Origin: the human T2T-CHM13v2.0 reference genome, Homo sapiens
Length of the DNA stretch: 64,000 nucleotides
Assembly: GCA_009914755.4 (NCBI GenBank)
Contig: CP086569.2
Span: 35,872,001-35,936,000, forward strand
Direction: 5' to 3'
In this document: positions 6,901 through 35,847 of the stretch, in pieces
How positions within the stretch are numbered: the stretch's first letter is position 1
Layout of the letters: each line of letters opens with the position of its first letter
Position numbers and translations under genes: made by a program
The notes under the pieces: model-generated
Seen by the model: only the letters and a program-made list of their open reading frames with translations
Told to the model about the DNA's origin: nothing
The model's database searches: none

Positions 6901-7472
6901 ACTGGAATGGAAGGGAGTGTAATGGAAGGTTCTCGAAAAAAATGGAATCGAATGGAATGGAATTGAATGGAACGGAATAGAGTCGAATGGAATTGAATGG
7001 AATGGAATGGACTAGAGTGAAATGGAATCGAACCACAAGGAATGGACAGGAATAGAATGGTCTCGAATTGAATGGAATCGTATGGAATGGCATCAAACGG
7101 AATGGAATGGACAGCCACGGAATGGAATGCACTCGAATGCAATGGAGTCGAAACTAATGGACTGGAATAGAATGGACTCGACTGGTACGGACTCCAATGG
7201 AATGGAATCGAATGGAAGGGAATCGAACGGAATGGACTCGAAGGGAAAAAACTGCAATGGAAAGGTCTCGAATGGAATGGAAATTAATGGAATGGAATGG
7301 AATCGAATGAAATGGAGTCAAAAGGAATGGAATCGAATGGCAAGAAATCGAATGTAATGGAATCGCAAGGAATTGATGTGAACGGAACGGAATGGAATGG
7401 AATCCAAAGGAATGGAATAGAATGGAATGGAATCGAATGGAAAGGACTCGAATGGAAATCACTCGAATAGAA
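3934..7472 (+). repeat. HOR unit 2, 3539 bp
   Basis: Anchor at 3934 and 7473. The ORF set is colinear with unit 1. GGCC at ~6270. Island triplet ggctgGATgtcg at ~6406. Confidence 0.8.
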
Positions 7473-14000: not shown

Positions 14001-14545
14001 TCGAAAGGAATGGAATTGAATGGAACGGAATAGAGTCGAATGGAATTCAATGGAATGGAATGGACTAGAGTGAAATGGAATCGAACCACAAGGAATGGAC
14101 AGGAATAGAATGGTCTCGAATTGAATGGAATCGTATGGAATGGCATCAAACGGAATGGAATGGACAGCCACGGAATGGAATGGACACCCACGGAATGGAA
14201 TGCACTCGAATGCAATGGAGTCGACACTAATGGACTGGAATAGAATGGACTCGACTGGTACGGAGTCCAATGGAATGGAATCGAATGGAAGGGAATCGAA
14301 CGGAATGGACTCGAAGTGAAAAGACTGCAATGGAAAGGTCTCCAATGGAATGGAAATTAATGGAATGGAATGGAATCGAATGAAATGGAGTCAAAAGGAA
14401 TGGAATCGAATGGCAAGAAATCGAATGTAATGGAATCGCAAGGAATGGATGTGAACGGAACGGAATGGAATGGAATCCAAAGGAATGGAATAGAATGGAA
14501 TGGAATCGAATGGAAAGGACTTGAATGGAAATCACTCGAATAGAA
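11012..14545 (+). repeat. HOR unit 4, 3534 bp. Subtype carrying a 10-bp deletion and a 20-bp tandem duplication.
   Basis: Anchor at 11012 and 14546. 10-bp deletion at ~11219: atggactgga|ctcgaacag lacks the atggaatgga present at 7671-7690 in unit 3. 20-bp near-perfect tandem duplication at 14161-14200: tggacagccacggaatggaa followed by tggacacccacggaatggaa. Island triplet ggctgGGGgtcg at ~13467. Confidence 0.8.
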
Positions 14546-17500
14546 TGCAATTTAATAAAATAGGATCAAATGTAATGGAATGGAATGGAAAGGAATCGAA
14601 ATGAAAGGAATGGAGACAGATGGAATGGAATGGAACAGAGAGCAATGGTATAGAATGGAATGGAATCATCTGGAATGGAATTGAATGGAATGGAATAATA
14701 TGAAATGGAATGGAATGGAATGGAATGCCCTTGAATTAAATGGACTGGAATGGAATGGACTCGAACAGAGTGGAATGGAAAGTGTTGAAATAGAATGGAA
14801 TGGACTCGTTTGGAATGGTCTAGTATGCAATGCAATCGACTGGCAGGGAATCAAAAGGAATGTAATCGAATGGATTGGACTGGAATGCAATGGACTCGAA
14901 TAGATTGGAAACGGAAAGCAAAGGAATGGAATGGAATAGTATGGAATGGAATGGAAAGGAATGGAGTGGAATAGACTAGAGTGGAATGGAATGGACTCGA
15001 AAGCAATGGACTGGAATGGAACTTTCTTGAATGGACTGGAATCAAACGGAATGGAATGCAATGCAATCAAATGGCATGGAATAAAATAGAATGAAAGAGA
15101 ATCAAATGGAATTGAATCGAATGGAATCGAATGGATTGGAAAGGAATAGAATGGAATGGAATGGAATTGACTCAAATGGAATGGACTAGAATGGAATGGA
15201 TTCGAATGGAAGGCAAAGGAATGGAATCTATTGGAATGGACTGTAATGGAATGGAATGGAAGGGATTGGAATGGACTCGAATGGAATGGACTGCCATAGA
15301 AAGGATTCGAATGGAATGAAAAAGAATTGAATGGAATAGAACAGAATGGAATCAAATCGAATGAAATGGAATGGAATAGAAAGGAATGGAATGAAATGGA
15401 ATGGAAAGGATTCGAATGGAATGCAATCGAATGGAATGCAATCGAATGGAATGGAATCGAACGGAATGGAATAAAATGGAAGAAAACTGGCAAGAAATGG
15501 AATCGAAATGAATGGAGTGTTATGGAACGGACTCAAAAGGAATTGAATGTAATAGAATGGAGTGGAGTGGACTCGAATATAATGGACTGGAATGGAATGA
15601 AATCACATGGAATGGGAACGAATGGAATGGAATGGAAAGGAATGGAATCGAATGGAAAGGAATCGAATGGAAGGGAATGAAATTGAATCAACAGGAATGG
15701 AAGGGAGTAGAATAGACGGTAATGGAATGGACTCGAATAGAATGGACACGAATGCTCAAATTGAATGGACTCGAATGGAATGGAAACGAAAGGAATGTCA
15801 TCGAATGGAATTGAATCGATTGGAATGAAATCACATAGAATGGAGTGGAATCAAATGGAATTGAATCGAAAGGAAAGGAAGCGAATGGACTGAAATGAAA
15901 TGGAATGGAATTGAATGGAAATTAATGCAATGGAATAGAATGGAACGAAATTTCACGGAATGGAATCAAACTGAATGGAATCAAATCAATGGAATCTAAT
16001 CAAATGGAATGGAAAGGAATTGAATGGAGTAGATTGGATTGGATGGGATTGGAATGAAATGTACTGGAAAGGACTCGAATTTCATGAAACGGAATGGAAT
16101 GAATTAGAACGGAATGGACTCGAATGGAATGGAATGTCATGGAATGGCATCAAATGGAATGGAATCGAATGCGATGGAATGCTATGGAATGGAATGGAAT
16201 GCATTGGAATGGAATGTCCTCTAATGGAATGTATTCGAGTGGAATGGAATCGAATATAATGGAGTCTAATGAAAGGGAATTGAAAGGAATGGGACCGAAT
16301 ACAACGGAATATACTGGAATGTAATGTAATGAACTCGAATGTAATTGACTGGAATGGAATGTACATGAATGGAATGTAATCGAATGGAAAGCAATCCAAT
16401 GGAATAGAATCTAATGCAATAAAATCGACTCAAATAGAGTAGAATGTAATGGAATGGAGTGCAGTGCAATGGAATGGAATGGAATGGAATGCAATGGAAT
16501 GGAATGGAATGGAATGGAATGGGATGGAATGGTATGGAATGGATAGTAATGGACTGGAGTGAAATGGACTGGAAAAGAATGGACTCAAATTGAAAGGTCT
16601 CGAAAGGAATGGAGTCAAATGGAATGGTCTGGAATGGAATGAACACGAATGTAATGCAATCCAATAGAATGGAATCGAATGGCATGGAATATAAAGAAAT
16701 GGAATCGAAGAGAATGGAAACAAATGGAATGGAATTGAATGGAATGGAATTGAATGGAATGGGAACGAATGGAGTGAAATTGTATGCACTAGAAGAGAAT
16801 AGAATGGAATGCAAGCGAAAGGAAAGGAATGGATTGGAATGGAATGGAATTCATTGGAATGGAAGGGAATGTAGTGTAATGGACAGGCCTGGAATAAAGT
16901 GGAATGCTACGGTCTCGAATGGAATAAAAATGTATGGAATGGAATGCAATGAAACGGAATCGAATGTCATAGAATGTAATGGAATGCAAAAAAATGGACT
17001 CCAAAATCATTGACTGGAAAGGCTGGGTGTCGAAAGGAATTGACTCCAATGGAATGGAATCGAATGGAATGGAAGTGAATAGAATGGAACTAAATCGAAT
17101 GGAATGGAATTGATAGGAACGGAATGGAAAGGAATGCAATGATTTGGCATGGAATGGAATCGAATGGCATCGAATGGAATGGAATGGAATGCAATGGAAT
17201 GGAATGTATTAGAATGTAATGAACTTTAATGGAATATACTCGAATGGATTCGACTGGAATGGAATGTTCTTGAAGTGAATGGACTCCAATTGAATGGATT
17301 CGAAAGGAATGGAATCTAATGGAATGGAATTAAATGGAAATGAATCAAATTGAATAGAACGGAATTGAATTGAATGGAATCGAATGCAATGGAATCTAAT
17401 GAAACGGAAAGGAAAGGAATGGAATGGATTGGAATGGAATGGGCTGGAATGGAATGGAATCGAAACGAATGGAATGGAATCGAACTGAAGAGACTGGAAT

Positions 17501-18069
17501 GGAATGCACTGGAATGGAAGGGAATGTAATGGAAGGTTCTCGAAAAAAATGGAATCGAAAGGAATGGAATTGAATGGAACGGAATAGAGTCGAATGGAAT
17601 TCAATGGAATGGAATGGACTAGAGTGAAATGGAATCGAACCACAAGGAATGGACAGGAATAGAATGGTCTCGAACTGAATGGAATCGTATGGAATGGCAT
17701 CAAACGGAATGGAATGGACAGCAACGGAATGGAATGCACTCGAATGCAATGGAGTCGACACTAATGGACTGGAATAGAATGGACTCGACTGGTACGGACT
17801 CCAATGGAATGGAATCGAATGGAAGGGAATCGAACGGAATGGACTCGAAGGGAAAAGACTGCAATGGAAAGGTCTCGAATGGAATGGAAATTAATGGAAT
17901 GGAATGGAATCGAATGAAATGGAGTCAAAAGGAATGGAATCGAATGGCAAGAAATCGAATGTAATGGAATCGCAAGGAATTGATGTGAACGGAACGGAAT
18001 GGAATGGAATCGAAAGGGATGGAATGGAATCGAATGGAAAGGACTCGAATGGAAATCACTCGAATAGAA
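14546..18069 (+). repeat. HOR unit 5, 3524 bp
   Basis: Anchor at 14546 and 18070 (variant tgcaatttaatacaatagg at 18070). GGCC at ~16886. Confidence 0.8.
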
Positions 18070-21000
18070 TGCAATTTAATACAATAGGATCAAATGTAAT
18101 GGAATGGAATGGAAAGGAATCGAAACGAAAGGAATGGAGACAGATGGAATGGAATGGAACAGAGAGCAATGGTATAGAATGGAATGGAATCATCTGGAAT
18201 GGAATTGAATGGAATGGAATAAGATGAAATGGAATGGAATGGAATGGAATGCCCTTGAATTAAATGGACTGGAATGGAATGGACTCGAACAGAGTGGAAT
18301 GGAAAGTGTTGAAATAGAATGGAATGGACTCCTTTGGAATGGTCTAGTATGCAATGCAATCGACTGGCAGAGAATCAAGAGGAATGTAATCGAATGGAAA
18401 GGACTGGAATGCAATGGAATCGAATAGATTGGAAACGGAAAGCAAAGGAATGGAATGGAATAGTATGGAATGGAATGGAAAGGAATGGAGTGGAATAGAC
18501 TAGAGTGGAATGGAATGGACTCGAAAGCAATGGACTGGAATGGAACTTTCTTGAATGGACTGGAATCAAACGGAATGGAATGCAATGCAATCAAATGTCA
18601 TGGAATTAAATAGAATGAAAGAGAATCAAACGGAATTGAATCGAATGGAATCGAATGGATTGGAAAGGAATAGAATGGAATGGAATGGAATTGACTCAAA
18701 TGGAATGGACTGGAATGGAATGGATTCGAATGGAAGGCAAAGGAATGGAATCTATTGGAATGGACTGTAATGGAATGGAATGTAAGGGATTGGAATGGAC
18801 TCAAATGGAATGGACTGCAATAGAAAGGATTCGAATGGAATGAAAAAGAATTGAATGGAATAAAACAGAATGGAATCAAATCGAATGAAATGGAATGGAA
18901 TAGAAAGGAATGGAAAGGATTCGAATGGAATGCAATCGAATGGAATGCAATCGAATGGAATGGAATCGAACGGAATGTAATAAAATGGAAGAAAACTGGC
19001 AAGAAATGGAATCGAAATGAATGGAGTGTTATGGAACGGACTCAAAAGGAATTGAATGTAATAGAATGGAGTGGAGTGGACTCGAATATAATGGACTGGA
19101 ATGGAATGAAATCACATGGAATGGGAACGAATGGAATGGAATGGAAAGGAATGGAATCGAATGGAAAGGAATCGAATGGAAGGGACTGAAATTGAATCAA
19201 CAGGAATGGAAGGGAGTAGAATAGACGGTAATGGAATGGACTCGAATAGAATGGACACGAATGCTCAAATTGAATGGACTCGAATGGAATGGAAACGAAA
19301 GGAATGTCATCGAATGGAATTGAATCGATTGGAATGAAATCACATAGAATGGAGTGGAATCAAATGGAATTGAATCGAAAGGAAAGGAAGCGAATGGACT
19401 GAAATGAAATGGAATGGAATTGAATGGAAATTAATGCAATGGAATAGAATGGAACGAAATTTCACGGAATGGAATCAAACTGAATGGAATCAAATCAATG
19501 GAATATAATCAAATGGAATGGAAAGGAATTGAATGGAGTAGATTGGATTGGATGGGATTGGAATGAAATGCACTGGAAAGGACTCGAATTTCATGAAACG
19601 GAATGGAATGAATTGGAACGGAATGGACTCGAATGGAATGGAATGTCACGGAATGGCATCAAATGGAATGGCATCAAATGGAATGGAATAGAATGCAATG
19701 GAATGCTATGGAATGGAAAGGAATGCATTGGAATGGAATGTCCTCTAATGGAATGCATTCGAGTGGAATGGAATCGAATATAATGGAGTCGAATGAAATG
19801 GAATTGAAAGGAATGGGATCGAATACCATGTAATATACTGGAATGTAATGTAATGAACTCGAATGTAATTGACTGGAATGGAATGTACATGAATGGAATG
19901 TAATCGAATGGAAAGTAATCCAATGGAATAGAATCTAATGCAATAAAATCGACTCAAATAGAATAGAATGTAATGGAATGGAGTGCATTGCAATGGAATG
20001 GAATGGAATGGAATGCAATGGAATGGAATGGAATGGAATGGAATGGAATGGAATGGGATGGAATGGTATGGAATGGATAGTAATGGACTGGAGTGAAATG
20101 GACTGGAAAAGAATGGACTCAAATTGAAAGGGCTCGAAAGGAATGGAGTCAAATGGAATGGTCTGGAATGGAATGAATACGAATGTAATGCAATCCAATA
20201 GAATGGAATCGAATGGTATGGAATATAAAGAATTGGAATCGAAGAGAATGGAAACAAATGGAATGGAATTGAATGGAATGGAATTGAATGGAATGGGAAC
20301 GAATGGAGTGAAATTGTATGCAGTAGAAGAGAATAGAATGGAATGCAAGCGAAAGGAAAGGAATGGATTGGAATGGAATGGAATTCATTGGAATGGAAGG
20401 GAATGTAGTGTAATGGACAGGCCTGGAATAAAGTGGAATGCTACGGTCTCGAATGGAATAAAAATGTATGGAATAGAATGCAATGAAACGGAATCGAATG
20501 TCATAGAATGTAATGGAATGCAAAAAAATGGAATCCAAAATCATTGACTGGAAAGGCTGGGTGTCGAAAGGAATTGCCTCCAATGGAATGGAATCGAATG
20601 GAATGGAAGTGAATAGAATGGAACTAAATCGAATGGAATGGAATTGATAGGAACGGAATGGAAAGGAATGCAATGATTTGGCATGGAATGGAATCGAATG
20701 GCATCGAATGGAATGGAATGGAATGCAATTGAATGGAATGTATTAGAATGTAATGAACTTTAATGTAATGTACTCGAATGGATTCGACTGGAATGGAATG
20801 TTCTCGAAGTGAATGGACTCCAATGGAATGGATTCGAAAGGAATGGAATCTAATGGAATGGAATTAAATGGAAATGAATCAAATTGAATAGAACGGAATT
20901 GAATGGAATGGAATCGAATGCAATGGAATCTAATGAAACGGAAAGGAAAGGAATGGAATGGATTGGAATGGAATGTGCTGGAATTGAATGGAATCGAAAC

Positions 21001-21613
21001 GAATGGAATGGAGTCGAACTGAAGAGACTGAAATGGAATGCACTGGAATGGAAGGGAGTGTAATGGAAGGTTCTCGAAAAAAATGGAATCGAAAGGAATG
21101 GAATTGAATGGAACGGAATAGAGTCGAATGGAATTCAATGGAATGGAATGGACTAGAGTGAAATGGAATCGAACCACAAGGAATGGACAGGAACAGAATG
21201 GTCTCGAATTGAATGGAATCGAATGGAATGGCATCAAACGGCATGGAATGGACAGCAACGGAATGGAATGCACTCGAATGCAATGGAGTCGACACTAATG
21301 GACTGGAATAGAATGGACTCGACTGGTACGGACTCCATTGAAATGGAATTGAATGGAAGGGAATGGAACGGAATGGACTCGAAGGGAAAAGACTGCAATG
21401 TAAAGGTCTCGAATGGAATGGAAATTAATGGAATGGAATGGAATCGAATGAAATGGAGTCAAAAGGAATGGAATCGAATGGCAAGAAATCGAATGTAATG
21501 GAATCACAAGGAATTGATGTGAACGGAACGGAATCGAATGGAATCCAAAGGAATGGAATAGAATGGAATGGAATCGAATGGAAAGGACTCGAATGGAAAT
21601 CACTCGAATAGAA
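18070..21613 (+). repeat. HOR unit 6, 3544 bp
   Basis: Anchor at 18070 and 21614. ORFs colinear with other units. Marker variant gacagcAacgg at ~17711. Confidence 0.8.
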
Positions 21614-24600
21614 TGCAATTTAATAAAATAGGATCAAATGTAATGGAATGGAATGGAAAGGAATCGAAACGAAAGGAATGGAGACAGATGGAATGGAATG
21701 GAACAGAGAGCAATGGTATAGAATGGAATGGAATCATCTGGAATGGAATTGAATGGAATGGAATAATATGAAATGGAATGGAATGGAATGGAATGCCCTT
21801 GAATTAAATGGACTGGAATGGAATGGACTCAAACAGAGTGGAATGGAAAGTGTTGAAATAGAATGGAATGGACTCGTTTGGAATGGTCTAGTATGCAATG
21901 CAATCGACTGGCAGGGAATCAAGAGGAATGTAATCGAATGGATTGGACTGGAATGCAATGGACTCGAATAGATTGGAAACGGAATTCAAAGGAATGGAAT
22001 GGAATAGTATGGAATGGAATGGAAAGGAATGGAGTGGAATAGACTAGAGTGGAATGGAATGGACTCGAAAGCAATGGACTGGAATGGAACTTTCTTGAAT
22101 GGACTGGAATCAAACGGAATGGAATGCAATGCAATCAAATGGCATGGAATAAAATAGAATGAAAGAGAATCAAATGGAATTGAATCGAATGGAATCGAAT
22201 GGATTGGAAAGAAATAGAATGGAATGGAATGGAATTGACTCAAATGGAATGGACTAGAATGGAATGGATTCGAATGGAAGGCAAAGGAATGGAATCTATT
22301 GGAATGGACTGTAATGGAATGGAATGGAAGGGATTGGAATGGACTCGAATGGAATGGACTGCAATAGAAAAGATTCGAATGGAATGAAAAAGAATTGAAT
22401 GGAATAGAACAGAATGGAATCAAATCGAATGAAATGGAATGGAAGAGAAAGGAATGGAATGAAATGGAATGGAAAGGATTCGAATGGAATGCAATCGAAT
22501 GGAATGCAATCGAATGGAATGGAATCGAACGGAATGGAATAAAATGGAAGAAAACTGGCAAGAAATGGAATCGAAATGAATGGAGTGTTATGGAACGGAC
22601 TCAAAAGGAATTGAATGTAATAGAATGGAGTGGAGTGGACTCGAATATAATGGACTGGAATGGAATGAAATCACATGGAATGGGAACGAATGGAATGGAA
22701 TGGAAAGGAATGGAATGGAAAGGAATGGAATCGAATGGAAAGGAATCGAATGGAAGGGAATGAAATTGAATCAACAGGAATGGAAGGAAGTAGAATAGAC
22801 GGTAATGGAATGGACTCGAATAGAATGGACACGAATGCTCAAATTGAATGGACTCGAATGGAATGGAAACGAAAGGAATGTCGTCGAATGGAATTGAATC
22901 GATTGGAATGAAATCGCATAGAATGGAGTGGAATCAAATGGAATTGAATCGAAAGGAAAGGAAGCGAATGGTCTGAAATGAAATGGAATGGAATTGAATG
23001 GAAAGTAATGCAAGGGAATAGAATGGAACGAAATTTCACGGAATGGAATCAAACTGAATGGAATCAAATCAATGGAATATAATCAAATGGCATGGAAAGG
23101 AATTGAATGGAGTAGATTGGATTGGATGGGATTGGAATGAAATGTACTGGAAAGGACTCGAATTTCATGAAATGGAATGGAATGAACTGGAACGGAATGG
23201 ACTCGAATGGAATGGAATGTCATGGAATGGCATCAAATGGAATGGCATCAAATGGAATGGAATCGAATGCAATGGAATGCTATGGAATGGAATGGAATGC
23301 ATTGGAATGGAATGTCCCCTAATGGAATGGATTCGAGTGGAATGGAATCGAATATAATGGAGTCGAATGAAATGGAATTGAAAGGAAAGGGATCGAATAC
23401 AATGGAATATACTGGAATGTAATGTAATGAACTCGAATGTAATTGACTAGAATGGAATGTACATGAATGGAATGTAATCGAATGGAAAATAATCTCATGG
23501 AATAGAATCTAATGCAATAAAATCGACTCAAATAGAATAGAATGGAATGGAATGGAGTGCAGTGCAATGGAATGGAATGGAATGGAATGCAATGGAATGG
23601 AATGGAATGGAATGGAATGGAATGGAATGGGATGGAATGGTATGGAATGGATAGTAATGGACTGGAGTGAAATGGACTGGAAAAGAATGGACTCAAATTG
23701 AAAGGGCTCGAAAGGAATGGAGTCAAATGGAATGGTCTGGAATGGAATGAATACGAATGTAATGCAATCCAATAGAATGGAATCGAATGGTATGGAATAT
23801 AAAGAATTGGAATCGAAGAGAATGGAAACAAATGGAATGGAATTGAATGGAATGGAATTGAATGGAATGGGAACGAATGGAGTGAAATTGTATGCAGTAG
23901 AAGAGAATAGAATGGAATGCAAGCGAAAGGAAAGGAATGGATTGGAATGGAATGGAATTCATTGGAATGGAAGGGAATGTAGTGTAATGGACAGGCCTGG
24001 AATAAAGTGGAATGCTACGGTCTCGAATGGAATAAAAATGTATGGAATAGAATGCAATGAAACGGAATCGAATGTCATAGAATGTAATGGAATGCAAAAA
24101 AATGGAATCCAAAATCATTGACTGGAAAGGCTGGGTGTCGAAAGGAATTGCCTCCAATGGAATGGAATCGAATGGAATGGAAGTGAATAGAATGGAACTA
24201 AATCGAATGGAATGGAATTGATAGGAACGGAATGGAAAGGAATGCAATGATTTGGCATGGAATGGAATCGAATGGCATCGAATGGAATGGAATGGAATGC
24301 AATTGAATGGAATGTATTAGAATGTAATGAACTTTAATGTAATGTACTCGAATGGATTCGACTGGAATGGAATGTTCTCGAAGTGAATGGACTCCAATGG
24401 AATGGATTCGAAAGGAATGGAATCTAATGGAATGGAATTAAATGGAAATGAATCAAATTGAATAGAACGGAATTGAATGGAATGGAATCGAATGCAATGG
24501 AATCTAATGAAACGGAAAGGAAAGGAATGGAATGGATTGGAATGGAATGTGCTGGAATTGAATGGAATCGAAACGAATGGAATGGAGTCGAACTGAAGAG

Positions 24601-25187
24601 ACTGAAATGGAATGCACTGGAATGGAAGGGAGTGTAATGGAAGGTTCTCGAAAAAAATGGAATCGAAAGGAATGGAATTGAATGGAACGGAATAGAGTCG
24701 AATGGAATTCAATGGAATGGAATGGACTAGAGTGAAATGGAATCGAACCACAAGGAATGGACAGGAACAGAATGGTCTCGAATTGAATGGAATCGTATGG
24801 AATGGCATCAAACGGAATGGAATGGACAGCAACGGAATGGAATGCACTCGAATGCAATGGAGTCGACACTAATGGACTGGAATAGAAAGGACTCGACTGG
24901 TACGGACTCCATTGAAATGGAATTGAATGGAAGGGAATGGATCGGAATGGACTCGAAGGGAAAAGACTGCAATGGAAAGGTCTCGAATGGAATGGAAATT
25001 AATGGAATGGAATGGAATCGAATGAAATGGAGTCAAAAGGAATGGAATCGAATGGCAAGAAATCGAATGTAATGGAATCGCAAGGAATTGATGTGAACGG
25101 AACGGAATCGAATGGAATCCAAAGGAATGGAATAGAATGGAATGGAATCGAATGGAAAGGACTCGAATGGAAATCACTCGAATAGAA
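21614..25187 (+). repeat. HOR unit 7, 3574 bp (long variant)
   Basis: Anchor at 21614 and 25188. About 35 bp longer than the 3539-bp units because of 15-bp block expansions: ORF 22395..22763 has extra WNAIE and WKGME repeats, and ORF 22675..22911 has an extra NGKEW, compared with the cognate ORFs at 18851..19189 and 19116..19337 of unit 6. Confidence 0.8.
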
Positions 25188-28100
25188 TGCAATTTAATAA
25201 AATAGGATCAAATGTAATGGAATGGAATGGAAAGGAATCGAAACGAAAGGAATGGAGACAGATGGAATGGAATGGAACAGAGAGCAATGGTATAGAATGG
25301 AATGGAATCATCTGGAATGGAATTGAATGGAATGGAATAATATGAAATGGAATGGAATGGAATGGAATGCCCTTGAATTAAATGGACTGGAATGGAATGG
25401 ACTCAAACAGAGTGGAATGGAAAGTGTTGAAATAGAATGGAATGGACTCGTTTGGAATGGTCTAGTATGCAATGCAATCGACTGGCAGGGAATCAAGAGG
25501 AATGTAATCGAATGGATTGGACTGGAATGCAATGGACTCGAATAGATTGGAAACGGAATTCAAAGGAATGGAATGGAATAGTATGGAATGGAATGGAAAG
25601 GAATGGAGTGGAATAGACTAGAGTGGAATGGAATGGACTCGAAAGCAATGGACTGGAATGGAACTTTCTTGAATGGACTGGAATCAAACGGAATGGAATG
25701 CAATGCAATCAAATGGCATGGAATAAAATAGAATGAAAGAGAATCAAATGGAATTGAATCGAATGGAATCGAATGGATTGGAAAGGAATAGAATGGAATG
25801 GAATGGAATTGACTCAAATGGAATGGACTAGAATGGAATGGATTCGAATGGAAGGCAAAGGAATGGAATCTATTGGAATGGACTGTAATGGAATGGAATG
25901 GAAGGGATTGGAATGGACTCGAATGGAATGGACTGCAATAGAAAAGATTCGAATGGAATGAAAAAGAATTGAATGGAATAGAACAGAATGGAATCAAATC
26001 GAATGAAATGGAATGGAAGAGAAAGGAATGGAATGAAATGGAATGGAAAGGATTCGAATGGAATGCAATCGAATGGAATGCAATCGAATGGAATGGAATC
26101 GAACGGAATGGAATAAAATGGAAGAAAACTGGCAAGAAATGGAATCGAAATGAATGGAGTGTTATGGAACGGACTCAAAAGGAATTGAATGTAATAGAAT
26201 GGAGTGGAGTGGACTCGAATATAATGGACTGGAATGGAATGAAATCACATGGAATGGGAACGAATGGAATGGAATGGAAAGGAATGGAATGGAAAGGAAT
26301 GGAATCGAATGGAAAGGAATCGAATGGAAGGGAATGAAATTGAATCAACAGGAATGGAAGGAAGTAGAATAGACGGTAATGGAATGGACTCGAATAGAAT
26401 GGACACGAATGCTCATATTGAATGGACTCGAATGGAATGGAAACGAAAGGAATGTCGTCGAATGGAATTGAATCGATTGGAATGAAATCGCATAGAATGG
26501 AGTGGAATCAAATGGAATTGAATCGAAAGGAAAGGAAGCGAATGGTCTGAAATGAAATGGAATGGAATTGAATGGAAAGTAATGCAAGGGAATAGAATGG
26601 AACGAAATTTCACGGAATGGAATCAAACTGAATGGAATCAAATCAATGGAATATAATCAAATGGCATGGAAAGGAATTGAATGGAGTAGATTGGATTGGA
26701 TGGGATTGGAATGAAATGTACTGGAAAGGACTCGAATTTCATGAAATGGAATGGAATGAACTGGAACGGAATGGACTCGAATGGAATGGAATGTCATGGA
26801 ATGGCATCAAATGGAATGGCATCAAATGGAATGGAATCGAATGCAATGGAATGCTATGGAATGGAATGGAATGCATTGGAATGGAATGTCCCCTAATGGA
26901 ATGGATTCGAGTGGAATGGAATCGAATATAATGGAGTCGAATGAAATGGAATTGAAAGGAAAGGGATCGAATACAATGGAATATACTGGAATGTAATGTA
27001 ATGAACTCGAATGTAATTGACTAGAATGGAATGTACATGAATGGAATGTAATCGAATGGAAAATAATCTCATGGAATAGAATCTAATGCAATAAAATCGA
27101 CTCAAATAGAATAGAATGGAATGGAATGGAGTGCAGTGCAATGGAATGGAATGGAATGGAATGCAATGGAATGGAATGGAATGGAATGGAATGGAATGGA
27201 ATGGGATGGAATGGTATGGAATGGATAGTAATGGACTGGAGTGAAATGGACTGGAAAAGAATGGACTCAAATTGAAAGGGCTCGAAAGGAATGGAGTCAA
27301 ATGGAATGGTCTGGAATGGAATGAATACGAATGTAATGCAATCCAATAGAATGGAATCGAATGGTATGGAATATAAAGAATTGGAATCGAAGAGAATGGA
27401 AACAAATGGAATGGAATTGAATGGAATGGAATTGAATGGAATGGGAACGAATGGAGTGAAATTGTATGCAGTAGAAGAGAATAGAATGGAATGCAAGCGA
27501 AAGGAAAGGAATGGATTGGAATGGAATGGAATTCATTGGAATGGAAGGGAATGTAGTGTAATGGACAGGCCTGGAATAAAGTGGAATGCTACGGTCTCGA
27601 ATGGAATAAAAATGTATGGAATAGAATGCAATGAAACGGAATCGAATGTCATAGAATGTAATGGAATGCAAAAAAATGGAATCCAAAATCATTGACTGGA
27701 AAGGCTGGGTGTCGAAAGGAATTGCCTCCAATGGAATGGAATCGAATGGAATGGAAGTGAATAGAATGGAACTAAATCGAATGGAATGGAATTGATAGGA
27801 ACGGAATGGAAAGGAATGCAATGATTTGGCATGGAATGGAATCGAATGGCATCGAATGGAATGGAATGGAATGCAATTGAATGGAATGTATTAGAATGTA
27901 ATGAACTTTAATGTAATGTACTCGAATGGATTCGACTGGAATGGAATGTTCTCGAAGTGAATGGACTCCAATGGAATGGATTCGAAAGGAATGGAATCTA
28001 ATGGAATGGAATTAAATGGAAATGAATCAAATTGAATAGAACGGAATTGAATGGAATGGAATCGAATGCAATGGAATCTAATGAAACGGAAAGGAAAGGA

Positions 28101-28761
28101 ATGGAATGGATTGGAATGGAATGTGCTGGAATTGAATGGAATCGAAACGAATGGAATGGAGTCGAACTGAAGAGACTGAAATGGAATGCACTGGAATGGA
28201 AGGGAGTGTAATGGAAGGTTCTCGAAAAAAATGGAATCGAAAGGAATGGAATTGAATGGAACGGAATAGAGTCGAATGGAATTCAATGGAATGGAATGGA
28301 CTAGAGTGAAATGGAATCGAACCACAAGGAATGGACAGGAACAGAATGGTCTCGAATTGAATGGAATCGTATGGAATGGCATCAAACGGAATGGAATGGA
28401 CAGCAACGGAATGGAATGCACTCGAATGCAATGGAGTCGACACTAATGGACTGGAATAGAAAGGACTCGACTGGTACGGACTCCATTGAAATGGAATTGA
28501 ATGGAAGGGAATGGATCGGAATGGACTCGAAGGGAAAAGACTGCAATGGAAAGGTCTCGAATGGAATGGAAATTAATGGAATGGAATGGAATCGAATGAA
28601 ATGGAGTCAAAAGGAATGGAATCGAATGGCAAGAAATCGAATGTAATGGAATCGCAAGGAATTGATGTGAACGGAACGGAATCGAATGGAATCCAAAGGA
28701 ATGGAATAGAATGGAATGGAATCGAATGGAAAGGACTCGAATGGAAATCACTCGAATAGAA
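25188..28761 (+). repeat. HOR unit 8, 3574 bp. Its 3' two-thirds is indistinguishable from unit 9, and its 5' third from unit 7, in the ORF track.
   Basis: Anchor at 25188 and 28762. Every ORF in 23058-26931 has an identical-length, identical-sequence partner at +3574 (for example 23058..23357 = 26632..26931 = 30206..30505). Confidence 0.85.
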
Positions 28762-31700
28762 TGCAATTTAATAAAATAGGATCAAATGTAATGGAATGGA
28801 ATGGAAAGGAATCGAAACGAAAGGAATGGAGACAGATGGAATGGAATGGAACAGAGAGCAATGGTATAGAATGGAATGGAATCATCTGGAATGGAATTGA
28901 ATGGAATGGAATAATATGAAATGGAATGGAATGGAATGGAATGCCCTTGAATTAAATGGACTGGAATGGAATGGACTCAAACAGAGTGGAATGGAAAGTG
29001 TTGAAATAGAATGGAATGGACTCGTTTGGAATGGTCTAGTATGCAATGCAATCGACTGGCAGGGAATCAAGAGGAATGTAATCGAATGGATTGGACTGGA
29101 ATGCAATGGACTCGAATAGATTGGAAACGGAATTCAAAGGAATGGAATGGAATAGTATGGAATGGAATGGAAAGGAATGGAGTGGAATAGACTAGAGTGG
29201 AATGGAATGGACTCGAAAGCAATGGACTGGAATGGAACTTTCTTGAATGGACTGGAATCAAACGGAATGGAATGCAATGCAATCAAATGGCATGGAATAA
29301 AATAGAATGAAAGAGAATCAAATGGAATTGAATCGAATGGAATCGAATGGATTGGAAAGGAATAGAATGGAATGGAATGGAATTGACTCAAATGGAATGG
29401 ACTAGAATGGAATGGATTCGAATGGAAGGCAAAGGAATGGAATCTATTGGAATGGACTGTAATGGAATGGAATGGAAGGGATTGGAATGGACTCGAATGG
29501 AATGGACTGCAATAGAAAAGATTCGAATGGAATGAAAAAGAATTGAATGGAATAGAACAGAATGGAATCAAATCGAATGAAATGGAATGGAAGAGAAAGG
29601 AATGGAATGAAATGGAATGGAAAGGATTCGAATGGAATGCAATCGAATGGAATGCAATCGAATGGAATGGAATCGAACGGAATGGAATAAAATGGAAGAA
29701 AACTGGCAAGAAATGGAATCGAAATGAATGGAGTGTTATGGAACGGACTCAAAAGGAATTGAATGTAATAGAATGGAGTGGAGTGGACTCGAATATAATG
29801 GACTGGAATGGAATGAAATCACATGGAATGGGAACGAATGGAATGGAATGGAAAGGAATGGAATGGAAAGGAATGGAATCGAATGGAAAGGAATCGAATG
29901 GAAGGGAATGAAATTGAATCAACAGGAATGGAAGGAAGTAGAATAGACGGTAATGGAATGGACTCGAATAGAATGGACACGAATGCTCATATTGAATGGA
30001 CTCGAATGGAATGGAAACGAAAGGAATGTCGTCGAATGGAATTGAATCGATTGGAATGAAATCGCATAGAATGGAGTGGAATCAAATGGAATTGAATCGA
30101 AAGGAAAGGAAGCGAATGGTCTGAAATGAAATGGAATGGAATTGAATGGAAAGTAATGCAAGGGAATAGAATGGAACGAAATTTCACGGAATGGAATCAA
30201 ACTGAATGGAATCAAATCAATGGAATATAATCAAATGGCATGGAAAGGAATTGAATGGAGTAGATTGGATTGGATGGGATTGGAATGAAATGTACTGGAA
30301 AGGACTCGAATTTCATGAAATGGAATGGAATGAACTGGAACGGAATGGACTCGAATGGAATGGAATGTCATGGAATGGCATCAAATGGAATGGCATCAAA
30401 TGGAATGGAATCGAATGCAATGGAATGCTATGGAATGGAATGGAATGCATTGGAATGGAATGTCCCCTAATGGAATGGATTCGAGTGGAATGGAATCGAA
30501 TATAATGGAGTCGAATGAAATGGAATTGAAAGGAAAGGGATCGAATACAATGGAATATACTGGAATGTAATGTAATGAACTCGAATGTAATTGACTAGAA
30601 TGGAATGTACATGAATGGAATGTAATCGAATGGAAAATAATCTCATGGAATAGAATCTAATGCAATAAAATCGACTCAAATAGAATAGAATGGAATGGAA
30701 TGGAGTGCAGTGCAATGGAATGGAATGGAATGGAATGCAATGGAATGGAATGGAATGGGATGGAATGGTATGGGATGGATAGAAATGGACTGGAGTGAAA
30801 TGGACTGGAAAGTAATGCACTCAAATTGAAAGAGCTCGAAAGAATGGAGTCAAATGGAATGTTCTGGAATGGAATGAACACGAATGTAATGCAATCCAAT
30901 AGAATGGAATCGAATGGCATGGAATATAAAGAAATGGAATCGAAGAGAATGGAAACGAATGGAATGGAATTGAATGGAATGGGAACGAATGGAGTGAAAT
31001 TGTATGCAGTAGAAGAGAATAGAATGGAATGCAAGCGAAAGGAAAGGAATGGATTGGAATGGAATGGAATTCATTGGAATGGAAGGGAATGTAGTGTAAT
31101 GGACAGGCCTGGAATAAAGTGGAATGCTACGGTCTCGAATGGAATAAAAATGTATGGAATGGAATGCAATGAAACGGAATCGAATGTCATAGAATGTAAT
31201 GGAATGCAAAAAAATGGAATCCAAAATCATTGACTGGAAAGGCTGGATGTCGAAAGGAATTGACTCCAATGGAATGGAATCGAATGGAATGGAAGTGAAT
31301 AGAATGGAACTAAATCGAATGGAATGGAATTGATAGGAACGGAATGGAAAGGAATGCAATGATTTGGCATGGAATGGAAACGAATGGTATCTAATGGAAT
31401 GGAATGGAATGTAATGGAATGGAATGTATTAGAATGTAATGAACTTTAATGGAATGTACTCGAATGGATTCGACTGGAATGGAATGTTCTGGAAGTGAAT
31501 GGACTCCAATGGAATGGATTGAAACGGAATGGAATCGTACGGAATGGAATCTAATGGAATGGAATTAAATGGAAATGAATCAAATTGAATAGAACGGAAT
31601 TGAATTGAATGGAATGGAATGCAATGGAATCTAATGAAACGGAAAGGAAAGGAATGGAATGGAATGGAATGGGCTGGAATGGAAAGGAATCGAAACGAAT

Positions 31701-32308
31701 GGAATGGAATCGAACTGAAGAGACTGGAATGGAATGCACTGGAATGGAAGGGAGTGTAATGGAAGGTTCTCGAAAAAAATGGAATCGAATGGAATGGAAT
31801 TGAATGGAACGGAATAGAGTCGAATGGAATTGAATGGAATGGAATGGACTAGAGTGAAATGGAATCGAACCACAAGGAATGGACAGGAATAGAATGGTCT
31901 CGAATTGAATGGAATCATATGGAATGGCATCAAACGGAATGGAATGGACAGCCACGGAATGGAATGCACTCGAATGCAATGGAGTCGAAACTAATGGATG
32001 GAATAGAATGGACTTGACTGGTACGGACTCCAATGGAATGGAATCGAATGGAAGGGAATCGAACGGAATGGACTCGAAGGGAAAAGACTGCAATGGAAAG
32101 GTCTCCAATGGAATGGAAATTAATGGAATGGAATGGAATCGAATGAAATGGAGTCAAAAGGAATGGAATCGAATGGCAAGAAATCGAATGTAATGGAATC
32201 GCAAGGAATTGATGTGAACGGAACGGAATGGAATGGAATCCAAAGGAATGGAATAGAATGGAATGGAATCGAATGGAAAGGACACGAATGGAAATCACTC
32301 GAATAGAA
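28762..32308 (+). repeat. HOR unit 9, 3547 bp. Its 5' ~1.9 kb is identical to unit 8; it then switches to another subtype.
   Basis: Anchor at 28762 and 32309. Identity with the -3574 copy ends near 30.7 kb: ORF 30467..30820 versus 26893..27405 diverge at the N-terminal end. Island triplet ggctgGATgtcg at ~31244, the same state as unit 2. Confidence 0.8.
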
Positions 32309-35300
32309 TGCAATTTAATAAAATAGGATCAAATGTAATGGAATGCAATGGAAAGGAATCGAAACGAAAGGAATGGAGACAGATGGAATGGAATGGAACA
32401 GAGAGCAATGGTATAGAATGGAATGGAATCATCTGGAATGGAATTGAATGGAATGGAATAATATGAAATGGAATGGAATGGAATGGAATGGAATGCCCTT
32501 GAATTAAATGGACTGGAATGGAATGGACTCGAACAGAGTGGAATGGAAAGTGTTGAGATAGAATGGAATGGACTCCTTTGGAATGGTCTAGTATGCAATG
32601 CAATCGACTGGCAGGGAATCAAAAGGAATGTAATGGAATGGATTGGACTGGAATGCAATGGACTCGAATAGATTGGAAACGGAATGCAAAGGAATGGAAT
32701 GGAATAGTATGGAATGGAATGGAAAGGAATGGAGTGGAATAGACTAGAGTGGAATGGAATGGACTGGAAAGCAATGGACTGGAATGGAACTTTCTTGAAT
32801 GGACTGGAATCAAACGGAATGGAATGCAATGCAATCAAATGGCATAGAATAAGATAGAATGAAAGAGAATCAAATGGAATTGAATGGAATGGAATCGAAT
32901 GGATTGGAAAGGAATAGAATGGAATGGAATGGAATTGACTCAAATGGAATGGACTAGAATGGAATGGATTCGAATGGAAGGCAAAGGAATGGAATCTATT
33001 GGAATGGACTGTAATGGAATGCAATGGAAGGGATTGGAATGGACTCGAATGGAATGGACTGCAATAGAAAGGATACGAATGGAATGAAAAAGAATTGAAT
33101 GGAATAGAACAGAATGGAAACAAATCGAATGAAATGGAATGGAATAGAAAGGAATGGAATGAAATGGAATGGAAAGGATTCGAATGGAATGCAAACGAAT
33201 GGAATGGAATCGAACGGAATGGAATAAAATGGAAGAAAACTGGCAAGAAATGGAATCGAAATGAATGGAGTGTTATGGAAGGGACTCAAAAGGAATTGAA
33301 TGTAATAGAATGGAGTGGAGTGGACTCGAATATAATGGACTTGAATGGAATGAAATCACATGGAATGGGAACGAATGGAATGGAATGGAAAGGAATGGAA
33401 TCGAATGGAAAGGAATCGAATGGAAGGGAATGAAATTGAACCAACAGGAATGGAAGGGAATAGAATAGACGGTAGTGGAATGGACTCGAATAGAATGGAC
33501 ACGAATGCTCAAATTGAATGGACTCGAATGGAATGGAAACGAAAGGAATGTCATCGAATGGAATTGAATCGATTGGAATGAAATCGCATAGAATGGAGTG
33601 GAATCAAATGGAATTGAATCGAAAGGAAAGGAAGCGAATGGACTGAAATGAAATGGAATGGAATTGAATGGAAAGTAATGCAATGGAATAGAATGGAACG
33701 AAATTTCACGGAATGGAATCAAACTGAATGGAATCAAATCAATGGAATCTAATCAAATGGAATGGAAAGGAATTGAATGGAGTAGATTGGATTGGATGGG
33801 ATTGGAATGAAATGTACTGGAAAGGACTGGAATTTCATGAAACGGAATGGAATGAATTGGAACGGAATGGACTCGAATGGAATGGAATGTCATGGAATGG
33901 CATCAAATGGAATGGCATCAAATGGAATGGAATCGAATGCAATGGAATGCTATGGAATGGAATGGAATGCATTGGAATGGAATGTCCTCTAATGGAATGG
34001 ATTCGAGTGGAATGGAATCGAATATAATGGAGTCGAATGAAATGGAATTGAAAGGAATGGGATCGAATACAATGGAATATACTGGAATGTAATGTAATGA
34101 ACTCGAATGTAATTGACTGGAATGGAATGTATATGAATGGAATGTAATCGAATGGAAAGTAATCCAATGGAATAGAATCTAATGCAATAAAATCGACTCA
34201 GATAGAGTAGAATGTAATGGAATGGAGTGCAGTGCAATGGAATGGAATGGAATGGAATGCAATGGAATGGAATGGAATGGGATGGAATGGTATGGAATGG
34301 ATAGTAATGGACTGGAGTGAAATGGACTGGAAAGGAATGGACTCAAATTGAAAGGGCTCGAAAGGAATGGAGACAAATGGAATGGTCTGGAATGGAATGA
34401 ACACGAATGTAATGCAATCCAATAGAATAGAGTCGAATGGCATGGAATATAAAGAAATGGAATCGAAGAGAATAGAAACAAATGGAATGGAATTGAATGG
34501 AATGGAATTGAGTGGAATGGGAACGAATGGAGTGAAATTGTATGCAGTAGAAGAGAATAGAATGGAATGCAAGCGAAAGGAAAGGAATGGATTGGAATGG
34601 AATGGAATTCATTGGAATGGAAGGGAATGTAGTGTAATGGACAGGCCTGGAATAAAGTGGAATGCTACGGTCTCGAGTGGAATAAAAATGTATGGATTGG
34701 AATGCAATGAAACGGAATCGAATGTCATAGAATGTAATGGAATGCAAAAAAATGGAATCCGAAATCATTGACTGGAAAGGCTGGGTGTCGAAAGGAATTG
34801 ACTCCAATGGAATGGAATCGAATGGAATGGAAGTGAATAGAATCGAACTAAATCGAATGGAATGGAATTGATAGGAACGGAATGGAAAGGAATGCAATGA
34901 TTTGGCATGGAATGGAATCGAATGGCATCGAATGGAATGGAATGGAATGCAATGGAATGGAATGTATTAGAATGTAATGAACTTTAATGGAATGTACTCG
35001 AAAGGATTTGACTGGAATGGAATGTTCTGGAAGTGAATGGACTCCAATGGAATGGATTCGAAAGGAATGGAATCGTACGGAATGGAATCTAATGGAATGG
35101 AATTAAATGGAAATGAATCAAATTGAATAGCACGGAATTGAATTGAATGGAATGGAATGCAATGGAATCTAATGAAACGGAAAGGAAAGGAATGCAATGG
35201 AATGGAATGGGCTGGAATGGAAAGGAATCGAAACGAATGGAATGGAATCGAACTGAAGAGACTGGAATGGAATGCACTGGAATGGAAGGGAGTGTAATGG

Positions 35301-35847
35301 AAGGTTCTCGAAAAAAATGGAATCGAATGGAATGGAATTGAGTGGAACGGAATAGAGTCGAATGGAATTGAATGGAATGGAATGGACTAGAGTGAAATGG
35401 AATCGAACCACAAGGAATGGACAGGAATAGAATGGTCTCGAACTGAATGGAATCGTATGGAATGGCATCAAACGGAATGGAATGGACAGCCACGGAATGG
35501 AATGCACTCGAATGCAATGGAGTCGAAACTAATGGACTGGAATAGAATGGACTCGACTGGTACGGACTCCAATGGAATGGAATCGAATGGAAGGGAATCG
35601 AACGGAATGGACTCAAAGGGAAAAGACTGCAATGGAACGGTCTCGAATGGAATGGAAATTAATGGAATGGAATGGAATCGAATGAAATGGAGTCAAAAGG
35701 AATGGAATCGAATGGCAAGAAATCGAATGTAATGGAATCGCAAGGAATTGATATGAACGGAACGGAATGGAATGGAATCCAAAGGAATGGAATAGAATGG
35801 AATGGAATCGAATGGAAAGGACTCGAATGGAAATCACTCGAATAGAA
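32309..35847 (+). repeat. HOR unit 10, 3539 bp, near-identical to unit 3
   Basis: Anchor at 32309 and 35848. ORFs 32329..33246, 33273..33737, 34343..34897 and 35089..35616 match 7493..8410, 8437..8901, 9507..10061 and 10253..10780 at a constant offset of 24836. Confidence 0.85.

What the first reader, a model, noticed from the sequence alone, without database searches (positions are those of the whole stretch)
20100..30700. Three consecutive near-identical 3,574-bp units; the last two are apparently 100% identical over ~7 kb
Over ~23.7-30.7 kb every translated ORF has an exact twin at +3574 bp, and I could not find a single difference. The preceding copy differs by only ~15 substitutions. These units are also the longest subtype, because they carry extra 15-bp blocks. 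Two explanations are possible. One is a very recent local amplification, since recent unequal sister-chromatid exchange is expected in Yq12-type satellites. The other is an assembly or polishing artefact, meaning a collapsed or over-polished repeat. Either way it is the youngest event visible in the window.
Basis: partly seen in the sequence, partly recalled or inferred. Interest (0 to 1): 0.55.

Follow-up and report, generated by a model that had tools for sequence, protein, structure and literature searches.

The report
Recent unit duplication in Y-chromosome satellite
Three neighbouring copies of the 3.57-kb repeat unit of the human Y-chromosome satellite DYZ1 are nearly or completely identical, which is the footprint of two recent one-unit tandem duplications: real in the sequence, but an ordinary and already described way for this satellite to change.

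Summary
At offset 3,574 bp, 22843-27184 equals 26417-30758 exactly (4,342 bp, no mismatch). So 22843-30758 (7,916 bp, 2.2 units) is perfectly periodic. The next longest exact repeat in the window is 1,274 bp. Cut in the family's own phase, the copies are A 19989-23562, B 23563-27136 and C 27137-30710. A differs from B and C by 8 substitutions (not ~15) and no indels; B equals C. All other unit pairs differ by 8-97 substitutions (median 69).

The window is human Yq12 DYZ1 (HSat3A6): a published 3,564-bp DYZ1 unit is 98.1-99.2% identical to every unit here.

The three copies share 39 substitutions and a 15-bp duplication found in no other unit. B and C share 3 derived changes that A lacks. That gives a nested history: A split from B/C, then B/C duplicated.

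Best explanation: two successive one-unit unequal sister-chromatid exchanges. At the published Yq12 mutation rate, the younger is under ~30-40 thousand years old and the older ~84 thousand years.

An assembly artefact (a repeat loop walked twice with one consensus) cannot be excluded without reads, but nothing in the sequence requires it.

Novelty is low.

The parts
19989..23562 (+). Copy A of the 3,574-bp family (oldest of the three). It differs from B and C at 8 sites, 5 of them private to A.
   Evidence: Offset-3,574 mismatch list; allele table; family-phase distance matrix, A-B = A-C = 8 substitutions and 0 indels.
23563..27136 (+). Copy B, identical to copy C.
   Evidence: 0 substitutions, 0 indels.
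27137..30758 (+). Copy C plus the 48-bp overhang that ends the periodic tract inside the pure (GGAAT)n run.
   Evidence: The exact match ends at 30758/27184, where the next unit has a (GGAAT)n run 20 bp shorter.
22843..30758 (+). Perfectly periodic tract (period 3,574 bp, 2.21 periods). 22843-27184 is identical to 26417-30758.
   Evidence: Longest exact repeat in the window, 4,342 bp at offset 3,574. The flanking mismatches are at 22842 and 27185.
22843..23610 (+). Interval (also at +3,574 and +7,148) in which the exchange that produced B and C must have happened. This is the 768-bp excess of the periodic tract over two periods.
   Evidence: Inference from the geometry of a one-unit unequal exchange, applied to the coordinates.
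19989..20036 (+). 48-bp interval (modulo 3,574) for the older A | B/C exchange. It lies in the unit's pure, length-variable (GGAAT)n run.
   Evidence: The triplet is 3 x 3,574 + 48 bp long. Ordinary neighbour divergence starts immediately outside both ends. This is an inference.
22688..22702 (+). Family-private 15-bp tandem duplication GGAATGGAATGGAAA (also at 26262-26276 and 29836-29850). It marks the three copies as one lineage.
   Evidence: Unit alignment. It is absent from the other 15 units, and an exact-pattern scan of metagenome and genome collections found nothing.
30774..30862 (+). Private hyper-divergent patch just past the right junction: 6 substitutions and a 1-bp deletion in 89 bp. 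A private 15-bp deletion follows near 30957.
   Evidence: No donor was found in the window or in the 52 independent DYZ1 contigs. It belongs to the junction region; its cause is unknown.
18082..19988 (+). Left flank: an unusually divergent part of the preceding unit, with 24 singleton substitutions and a private 15-bp deletion at 18907.
   Evidence: Singleton list; 25 mismatches in 856 bp against the family at offset 3,574.

Best explanation
The window is a stretch of the human Y-chromosome long-arm satellite DYZ1 (HSat3A6), an array of ~3.5-kb units built from diverged GGAAT pentamers.

Within it, one divergent unit type (3,574 bp) was copied twice in tandem by unequal exchange between sister chromatids misaligned by exactly one unit.

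The first exchange, in or next to the unit's pure (GGAAT)n run, turned one copy into two: A and the ancestor of B/C. These accumulated 5 and 3 substitutions respectively. The second exchange, somewhere in the 768-bp interval 22843-23610 (modulo the period), turned two copies into three. It left B and C identical because no mutation has hit either since.

Shown: the coordinates, the identities, the nested sharing of variants, and DYZ1 membership. Inferred: the mechanism (exchange rather than replication slippage or repair), the order of events and the ages.

The element has no coding or known RNA function. This is satellite turnover, not a functional device.
For: Exact 4,342-bp twin at offset 3,574, against a next-best exact repeat of 1,274 bp.

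In the family's phase, A-B = A-C = 8 substitutions and B-C = 0, with no indels. The nearest non-family unit is 60 substitutions away and the median over all pairs is 69.

All 8 A-versus-B/C differences are singletons against the other 15 units: 5 are private to A and 3 are shared by B and C. This gives the tree (A,(B,C)).

39 substitutions and a 15-bp duplication occur in exactly these three copies and nowhere else in the window. Almost none occur in the 52 independent DYZ1 contigs: only two of the 25-mers centred on these alleles (at 27953 and 28053) hit those contigs, once each.

The triplet is 3 periods + 48 bp long and the exact tract is 2 periods + 768 bp. This is the geometry expected of one-unit unequal exchanges.

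The triplet sits between two copies of a 4-unit higher-order block. Those two copies are 7 units apart, whereas the next copy follows after 4 units, so there are extra units here rather than a mere overwriting.

DYZ1 identity is supported.

Literature. [quoted passage not shown] Localized expansions and contractions of DYZ1 and DYZ2 units are reported (10.1101/2022.12.01.518658). About one de novo whole-unit structural change occurs per Y transmission in Yq12, and the SNV rate is 3.86e-7 per bp per generation (PMC12240836).

With that rate, B|C is under ~1,100-1,340 generations old and A|B/C is ~2,900 generations old (95% interval 1,250-5,700).
Against: No reads are available, so the copy number and the identity of B and C are not independently verified.

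The five de novo whole-unit changes seen in the pedigree were all in DYZ2, not DYZ1.

Six of the 8 A-versus-B/C differences are transversions, and six lie within 285 bp (21222-21506). This looks more like patchy sequence exchange than clock-like point mutation, so the ages are rough.

The flanks of the triplet are unusually divergent (18082-19988 and 30774-30862). A plain sister-chromatid exchange does not predict this.

The sequence cannot separate unequal crossover from replication-based duplication.
Confidence: 0.8

Rival explanations
1. Assembly artefact. The true locus has two family copies (or three that differ slightly). The assembler walked a repeat loop once too often, or gave each passage the same consensus, or polishing with ambiguously mapped reads erased real differences.
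For: Exact multi-kb tandem identity is what a loop node traversed twice would yield. A 2026 population-scale Y assembly preprint lists mis-walked loops in tandem repeats as a recurrent Verkko/Rukki problem in heterochromatin (10.64898/2026.06.03.729890). A singleton 1-bp deletion and a cluster of private changes lie 16-104 bp beyond the end of the exact tract, which could be local consensus trouble.
Against: The loop errors described there are loops left unwalked, meaning too few copies, not too many.

The exact tract is only 7.9 kb and is bounded by distinguishing variants at 22842 and 30759. Ordinary 15-20-kb HiFi reads would span it and fix the copy number (inference; the source assembly is unknown).

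Other very similar pairs in the same window kept their differences: A vs B 8, U4 vs U11 8, U3 vs U10 13. So there is no general over-homogenisation.

At the published Yq12 rates, an identical adjacent pair is not surprising. One difference is expected per ~360 generations for a duplicated unit.
Confidence: 0.1
2. Gene conversion without any copy-number change. B and C were already separate, diverged units, and a long non-crossover conversion tract (at least 4.3 kb) overwrote one with the other.
For: Interlocus gene conversion is reported as a major source of new variants in Yq12: 29% of de novo SNVs match non-orthologous sites, and 6 of 35 events were classed as conversion. The units in this window are visibly mosaic.
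Against: The required tract exceeds a whole unit. The conversion tracts measured on the Y are short: a median of 542 bp in palindromes, and single or clustered SNVs in Yq12.

The locus has three units more than the paralogous junction of the 4-unit block. That points to gain of copies.

The whole 3,574-bp length variant, including all its indels, is shared without a single mosaic break.
Confidence: 0.06
3. Replication- or repair-based duplication, meaning template switching or break-induced replication within one chromatid rather than a reciprocal unequal crossover.
For: The hyper-divergent 89-bp patch, the 15-bp deletion and the altered (GGAAT)n length just beyond the right junction resemble the mutation clusters that error-prone break repair leaves near junctions (general knowledge, not tested).
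Against: The patch lies at the outer edge of the older triplet, not at the B/C junction, which is scar-free. Similar singleton clusters occur elsewhere in the window, for example 4174-4215. The product is indistinguishable from that of an unequal exchange.
Confidence: 0.04

Closest known systems
DYZ1 / HSat3A6 satellite of human Yq12 (the ~3.5-3.6-kb HaeIII repeat)
   Same: The unit length here is 3,509-3,574 bp. There is one HaeIII site per unit. The units are built from diverged GGAAT/TTCCA pentamers. Identity to a published cloned unit is 98.1-99.2%. Published primers match once per unit.
   Different: Nothing of substance. The three family units are the most divergent from the published clone (63-65 substitutions for the two full-family HaeIII fragments, against 30-51 for the fragments outside the family region). 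At 3,574 bp they are 5 bp longer than the reported modal fragment of 3,569 bp.
Recent iterative tandem duplications in Yq12 described for T2T-Y (exact 2,000-mer dot-plot patterns) and the localized DYZ unit expansions in 43 Y assemblies
   Same: The signature is the same (multi-kb exact identity between tandem neighbours) and so is the proposed mechanism (unequal exchange).
   Different: The published examples emphasise very large events, up to 5 Mb and spanning whole DYZ1/DYZ2 blocks. This one is the smallest possible step, a single 3.57-kb unit, taken twice.
De novo whole-unit gains and losses in Yq12 seen in a four-generation pedigree (PMC12240836)
   Same: Those are changes of 2,416-4,839 bp that add or remove entire repeat units, about once per Y transmission. 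The event here is of the same size class and the same kind.
   Different: The observed de novo events were all in DYZ2. The event here is in DYZ1 and is inferred from one chromosome, not observed in transmission.
Higher-order repeat turnover in alpha-satellite centromeres
   Same: Both are tandem arrays homogenised by local unequal exchange, with a young, near-identical core and older diverged copies. The window also shows a 4-unit higher-order periodicity.
   Different: The satellite family and the unit structure are different, and there is no kinetochore association.

Membership tests
DYZ1 (HSat3A6), human Yq12 | Tandem unit of ~3.4-3.6 kb released by HaeIII (one GGCC per unit) | tested here: met
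   There are 18 GGCC sites, one per unit. The fragments are 3,524-3,574 bp. Published values are 3.56 kb / 3,564 bp and a modal 3,569 bp.
DYZ1 (HSat3A6), human Yq12 | Unit built from diverged copies of the pentamer TTCCA/GGAAT | tested here: met
   Self-identity peaks at offsets of 5, 10, 15... bp. The sequence reads as GGAAT variants. G+C is 0.38-0.39, matching the 38% reported for DYZ1.
DYZ1 (HSat3A6), human Yq12 | High sequence identity to a sequenced DYZ1 unit | tested here: met
   The 3,564-bp MZT1a clone (PMC3925983, Additional file 1), reverse-complemented, is 98.07-99.15% identical to all 17 HaeIII units of the window.
DYZ1 (HSat3A6), human Yq12 | Published DYZ1 PCR primers anneal once per unit | tested here: met
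   Primers C, D, E and F of PMC3925983 match exactly in 14-18 units and once per unit. Primers B and G match with up to 2 mismatches in all units. Primer A matches only 13 units and only with 2 mismatches, and primer H gave no match at up to 2 mismatches. A 154-bp primer pair recalled from memory also hits once per unit, but I could not find a source for it.
DYZ1 (HSat3A6), human Yq12 | Location on the Y long arm, in blocks alternating with DYZ2 (HSat1B) | not testable with these tools
   The 64-kb window is DYZ1 throughout and contains no DYZ2. No human genome is available to place it. 52 near-identical contigs occur as contaminants in metagenomes (one is titled 'human gut metagenome') and in bacterial assemblies. 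This fits a human origin only indirectly.
Tandem duplication by one-unit unequal exchange | The periodic tract is an integer number of periods plus a short overhang, and both ends fall at the same phase of the unit | tested here: met
   The triplet is 3 x 3,574 + 48 bp and the exact tract is 2 x 3,574 + 768 bp. Both outer ends map to alignment columns ~2309-2351, in the (GGAAT)n run.
Tandem duplication by one-unit unequal exchange | The copies form a nested genealogy with shared derived variants | tested here: met
   39 substitutions and a 15-bp duplication are shared by A, B and C only. Three substitutions are shared by B and C only, and 5 are private to A.
Tandem duplication by one-unit unequal exchange | Copy number confirmed in the underlying DNA (spanning reads or transmission) | not testable with these tools
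   No reads, no second assembly and no pedigree are available for this locus.

The most novel reading that the evidence does not exclude
Three rearrangement boundaries fall in or next to the same pure, length-variable (GGAAT)n run of the unit (alignment columns ~2309-2366). They are the older A|B/C exchange (a 48-bp interval), the left edge of the neighbouring 12-kb, 99.65%-identical duplicate, and, permissively, the B|C exchange (a 768-bp interval that includes the run). The junction also carries a private cluster of 7 changes in 89 bp. The most novel reading is that this run is a preferred breakage and exchange site within DYZ1 units, and that repair there is locally mutagenic. If so, DYZ1 turnover would be phase-locked rather than random along the unit.
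Probability: 0.15. Interest if true: 0.4.

Novelty: already known. Interest (0 to 1): 0.15.

Why it matters
It matters little beyond bookkeeping. It is a clean, datable example of the smallest step of satellite turnover in Yq12: one 3.57-kb unit gained, twice in succession at the same spot. The nested genealogy gives a relative time scale. It agrees with published evidence that Yq12 evolves by unequal exchange and gains or loses whole units about once per transmission.

Practically, exact tandem twins like this are the places where assembly copy number should be checked against reads. The family's private 15-bp duplication and its 39 private substitutions could also serve as markers for tracing this locus among related Y chromosomes.

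Tried and rejected
(1) The repeat finder on 18-33 kb was swamped by the pentamer background (hundreds of 60-69% 'copies') and added nothing. Direct offset comparison in Python was used instead.

(2) A BLAST self-comparison merged everything into window-long alignments. It was replaced by a unit-by-unit alignment.

(3) Coding reading. All ORFs are pentamer artefacts. Pfam gave only sub-threshold 'Pentapeptide' and 'Extensin' matches, caused by the 15-bp (5-amino-acid) periodicity. Rfam gave nothing.

(4) Exact look-ups of two family ORF products in the public gene-position collection found nothing on record.

(5) Scans of metagenome and prokaryote-genome collections for the family-specific 15-bp duplication gave 0 hits. 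A general DYZ1 anchor gave 52 contaminant contigs. None matched the family best, and essentially none carried family-private alleles: two of the 25-mers centred on those alleles had one hit each. These short-read contigs are consensus-like, so their silence says little.

(6) A literature search for the remembered 154-bp primer pair failed, so published primers and a published clone were used instead.

(7) I tried to reconstruct the full history of the surrounding 4-unit and 7-unit higher-order pattern as simple tandem duplications. The periodic tracts are shorter than two periods, so no single simple model fits. This is left unresolved.

(8) A donor search for the 8 A-versus-B/C variants and for the junction patch found no non-orthologous donor in the window, apart from trivially short pentamer contexts.


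Full report
WHAT THE WINDOW IS

The whole 64-kb window is a strand-asymmetric, purine-rich tandem repeat (A 25,950, G 19,327, T 13,323, C 5,400; G+C 0.38-0.39 throughout). Self-identity peaks at multiples of 5 bp and again at ~3.51-3.57 kb, and the sequence reads as diverged GGAAT pentamers. Anchors that occur once per unit give 18 full units with spacings of 3,509-3,574 bp.

I tested membership in the human Y-chromosome satellite DYZ1 (HSat3A6) directly:
- There is exactly one HaeIII site (GGCC) per unit, and the fragments are 3,524-3,574 bp.
- Published DYZ1 primers C, D, E and F (PMC3925983, Table 5) match exactly and once per unit. Primers B and G match with up to 2 mismatches in all units. 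Primer A matches only 13 units with 2 mismatches, and primer H gave no match at up to 2 mismatches.
- The published 3,564-bp cloned unit (Additional file 1 of that paper), reverse-complemented, is 98.07-99.15% identical to each of the 17 HaeIII units.
- A DYZ1 anchor also recovered 52 contaminant contigs from metagenomes (one titled 'human gut metagenome') and bacterial assemblies. They are up to 99.4% identical to units here.

Chromosomal position cannot be tested with these tools.

CHECKING THE OBSERVATION

At offset 3,574 bp the sequence is in register from 19133 to 30758. The mismatches are distributed as follows:

| Interval | Mismatches | Length |
|---|---|---|
| 19133-19988 | 25 | 856 bp |
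| 19989-22842 | 8 | 2,854 bp |
| 22843-27184 | 0 | 4,342 bp |

So 22843-27184 is identical to 26417-30758, and 22843-30758 (7,916 bp, 2.21 periods) is perfectly periodic. This is by far the longest exact repeat in the window. The next is 1,274 bp at offset 24,836.

I recut all units in the family's own phase. The copies are A = 19989-23562, B = 23563-27136 and C = 27137-30710:
- A-B = A-C = 8 substitutions and B-C = 0, with no indels among the three.
- The nearest non-family unit is 60 substitutions away.
- The immediate neighbours are 83-90 substitutions away.
- The median of all unit pairs is 69 (~1.9%).

The '~7 kb' is the periodic tract, while the twinned stretch is 4.3 kb. The stated coordinates are within about 100 bp of the true ends.

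The claim about 15-bp blocks is correct within the window. The family has a private tandem duplication of GGAATGGAATGGAAA at 22688, a 15-bp block at 22480 shared only with U5, U6 and U12, and a long form of the pure (GGAAT)n run. However, Hallast et al. report 3,569 bp as the most abundant DYZ1 HaeIII fragment in six of seven genomes. So 3,574 bp is only locally 'the longest'.

Pfam returns only sub-threshold pentapeptide-type matches, and Rfam returns nothing.

GENEALOGY OF THE THREE COPIES

Relative to the other units, the family carries 39 private substitutions plus the 15-bp duplication. Each of the corresponding 25-mers occurs exactly three times in the window, or twice for the B/C-only alleles. 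Only two of these 25-mers hit the 52 independent contigs, once each. Those contigs otherwise carry the consensus alleles.

All 8 A-versus-B/C differences are singletons against the rest of the window. Five are private to A (21222, 21242, 21401, 21506, 22212). At the other three, B and C share the derived base (A-copy positions 21314, 21368, 22842). The tree is therefore (A,(B,C)) on a long private branch. A single divergent unit became two, the two diverged slightly, and then one more copy was added.

GEOMETRY AND MECHANISM

A one-unit unequal exchange at position x duplicates a period-long segment that starts at x. The resulting periodic tract is n periods plus whatever identity already existed at the ends, and both ends lie at the same phase of the unit.

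Here the triplet is 3 x 3,574 + 48 bp. Ordinary divergence starts immediately outside both ends. This places the older exchange in a 48-bp interval (19989-20036, modulo the period), inside the unit's pure and most length-variable (GGAAT)n run.

The exact tract is 2 x 3,574 + 768 bp. This places the younger exchange in 22843-23610 (modulo the period), an interval that includes the same run but is too wide to be informative.

These steps are inference. The sequence shows the product, not the process.

The mechanism is the one already proposed for this region:
- Hallast et al. report localized expansions and contractions of DYZ1 and DYZ2 units.
- A four-generation pedigree shows about one de novo structural change of one or two whole units per Y transmission. 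All five observed were in DYZ2.

AGES

The pedigree-based Yq12 rate is 3.86e-7 substitutions per bp per generation (PMC12240836). At that rate a duplicated 3,574-bp unit (7,148 bp at risk) gains one difference about every 360 generations. The estimates are:

| Event | Differences | Age at the Yq12 rate |
|---|---|---|
| B|C split | 0 | under ~1,090 generations (one-sided 95%) or under ~1,340 (two-sided), about 31-39 thousand years |
| A|B/C split | 8 | ~2,900 generations, about 84 thousand years (95% interval 36-166) |
| Family's private branch | 39 | ~0.8 million years |

At the euchromatic Y rate these figures would be roughly 13 times larger (under 0.5 million years for B|C). 'Very recent' is therefore relative.

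The clock is rough. Six of the 8 differences are transversions, and six lie within 285 bp. A sizeable share of new Yq12 variants is attributed to interlocus gene conversion.

REAL OR ARTEFACT?

The sequence alone cannot decide, because a loop walked twice with one consensus looks exactly like a young duplication. Several arguments lean towards a real event:
- The exact tract (7.9 kb) is bounded by distinguishing variants. It is shorter than typical HiFi reads, so single reads should fix the copy number (inference; the source assembly is unknown).
- Other very similar pairs in the window kept their 8-13 differences, so there is no general over-homogenisation.
- The loop errors reported for Verkko/Rukki are unwalked loops, which give too few copies.
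- At published rates, an identical adjacent pair in an 18-unit window is unremarkable.

I put the artefact at about 10%.

A long non-crossover conversion (at least 4.3 kb) is less likely still. Tracts measured on the Y are short, with a median of 542 bp in palindromes. The locus also contains extra units compared with its paralogue, as described below.

CONTEXT

In the family's phase, the window reads as a 4-unit higher-order block repeated: V02-V05 | A B C | V09-V12 | V13-V16 and onward.
- V02 resembles V09 (26 substitutions), V03 resembles V10 (8), and V04 resembles V11 (10).
- The next block is less similar: V09-V13 differ by 37 substitutions and V10-V14 by 34.
- Measured directly, 6150-18250 and 30990-43090 differ by 42 substitutions and one 1-bp indel (0.35%).

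The first two blocks are 7 units apart, but the second and third are 4 units apart. The family triplet is thus three extra units sitting exactly at the joint between two block copies.

The flanks of the triplet are odd. The left flank, 18082-19988, has 24 singleton substitutions and a private 15-bp deletion. On the right, 16 bp beyond the end of the exact tract, lies a patch of 6 substitutions plus a 1-bp deletion within 89 bp (30774-30862), followed by a private 15-bp deletion. No donor for these was found in the window or in the 52 contigs. Similar singleton clusters exist elsewhere, for example at 4174-4215. The patch may therefore be a conversion from a donor outside the window. I could not fit the whole block history to simple tandem duplications and leave it open.

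VERDICT

It is an ordinary instance of a known process in a known satellite. The classification is 'already known' and interest is low (0.15).

The only mildly novel thread is the coincidence of several junctions with the pure (GGAAT)n run, together with the mutation cluster beside it. That thread would need a chromosome-wide tabulation to mean anything.

Noticed in passing
window 6150-18250 and 30990-43090: There is a ~12-kb direct duplicate at 99.65% identity (42 substitutions and one 1-bp indel), 24,836 bp apart (7 units). It is part of a 4-unit (~14.15-kb) higher-order periodicity of DYZ1 units: V02-V05, V09-V12, V13-V16. The third block is more diverged (~0.9%).
   Followed up: partly
window 30774-30862 and ~30957: A private cluster of 6 substitutions plus a 1-bp deletion lies within 89 bp, starting 16 bp after the end of the exact repeat tract. 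A private 15-bp deletion follows. No donor sequence was found in the window or in the 52 independent DYZ1 contigs.
   Followed up: partly
window 18082-19988: The part of the unit just left of the family is unusually divergent: 24 singleton substitutions and a private 15-bp deletion at 18907. The first ~600 columns of the same unit are nearly identical to unit U13.
   Followed up: partly
window 21222-21506: Six of the 8 differences between copy A and copies B/C fall within 285 bp. Five of those six are transversions, and alleles private to A are interleaved with alleles private to B/C. This pattern is not what independent point mutations would give.
   Followed up: partly
window 42562-46105 (unit U13): U13 is a fine-scale mosaic. 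Columns 1-300 match U6 (1 difference). Columns 301-900 match the 3,574-bp family (0-2 differences). Columns 901-2100 match U2. Columns 2700-3600 match the tail of U9. This is evidence of patchy exchange among units.
   Followed up: partly
window 21320, 24894, 28468: Published DYZ1 primer G (CGACTGGTACGGACTCCAT, PMC3925983) matches exactly only at the three family copies. Every other unit has 1-2 mismatches. At least one 'family-private' allele therefore probably exists in DYZ1 units elsewhere on the Y.
   Followed up: no
loci L042-L052 (genome contigs) and L001-L041 (metagenome contigs): Human DYZ1 satellite is present as contamination in public bacterial and archaeal genome assemblies (several Streptomyces and JCM strains, and some MAGs) and in many metagenome assemblies. 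Identity to this window is up to 99.4%, and several contigs are ~3.6 kb long, that is, one collapsed unit.
   Followed up: partly
window 4174-4215; 59047-59078: Other tight clusters of singleton substitutions occur: 5 within 42 bp in U2 and 3 within 32 bp in U17. They are similar in kind to the patch at the family's right junction.
   Followed up: no
window 32015 and 46165 regions (units U10, U14); 408 (U1); 30842 (U9): Single-base deletions break the 5-bp register. One is shared by U10 and U14, so it was inherited through duplication. The others are singletons.
   Followed up: no
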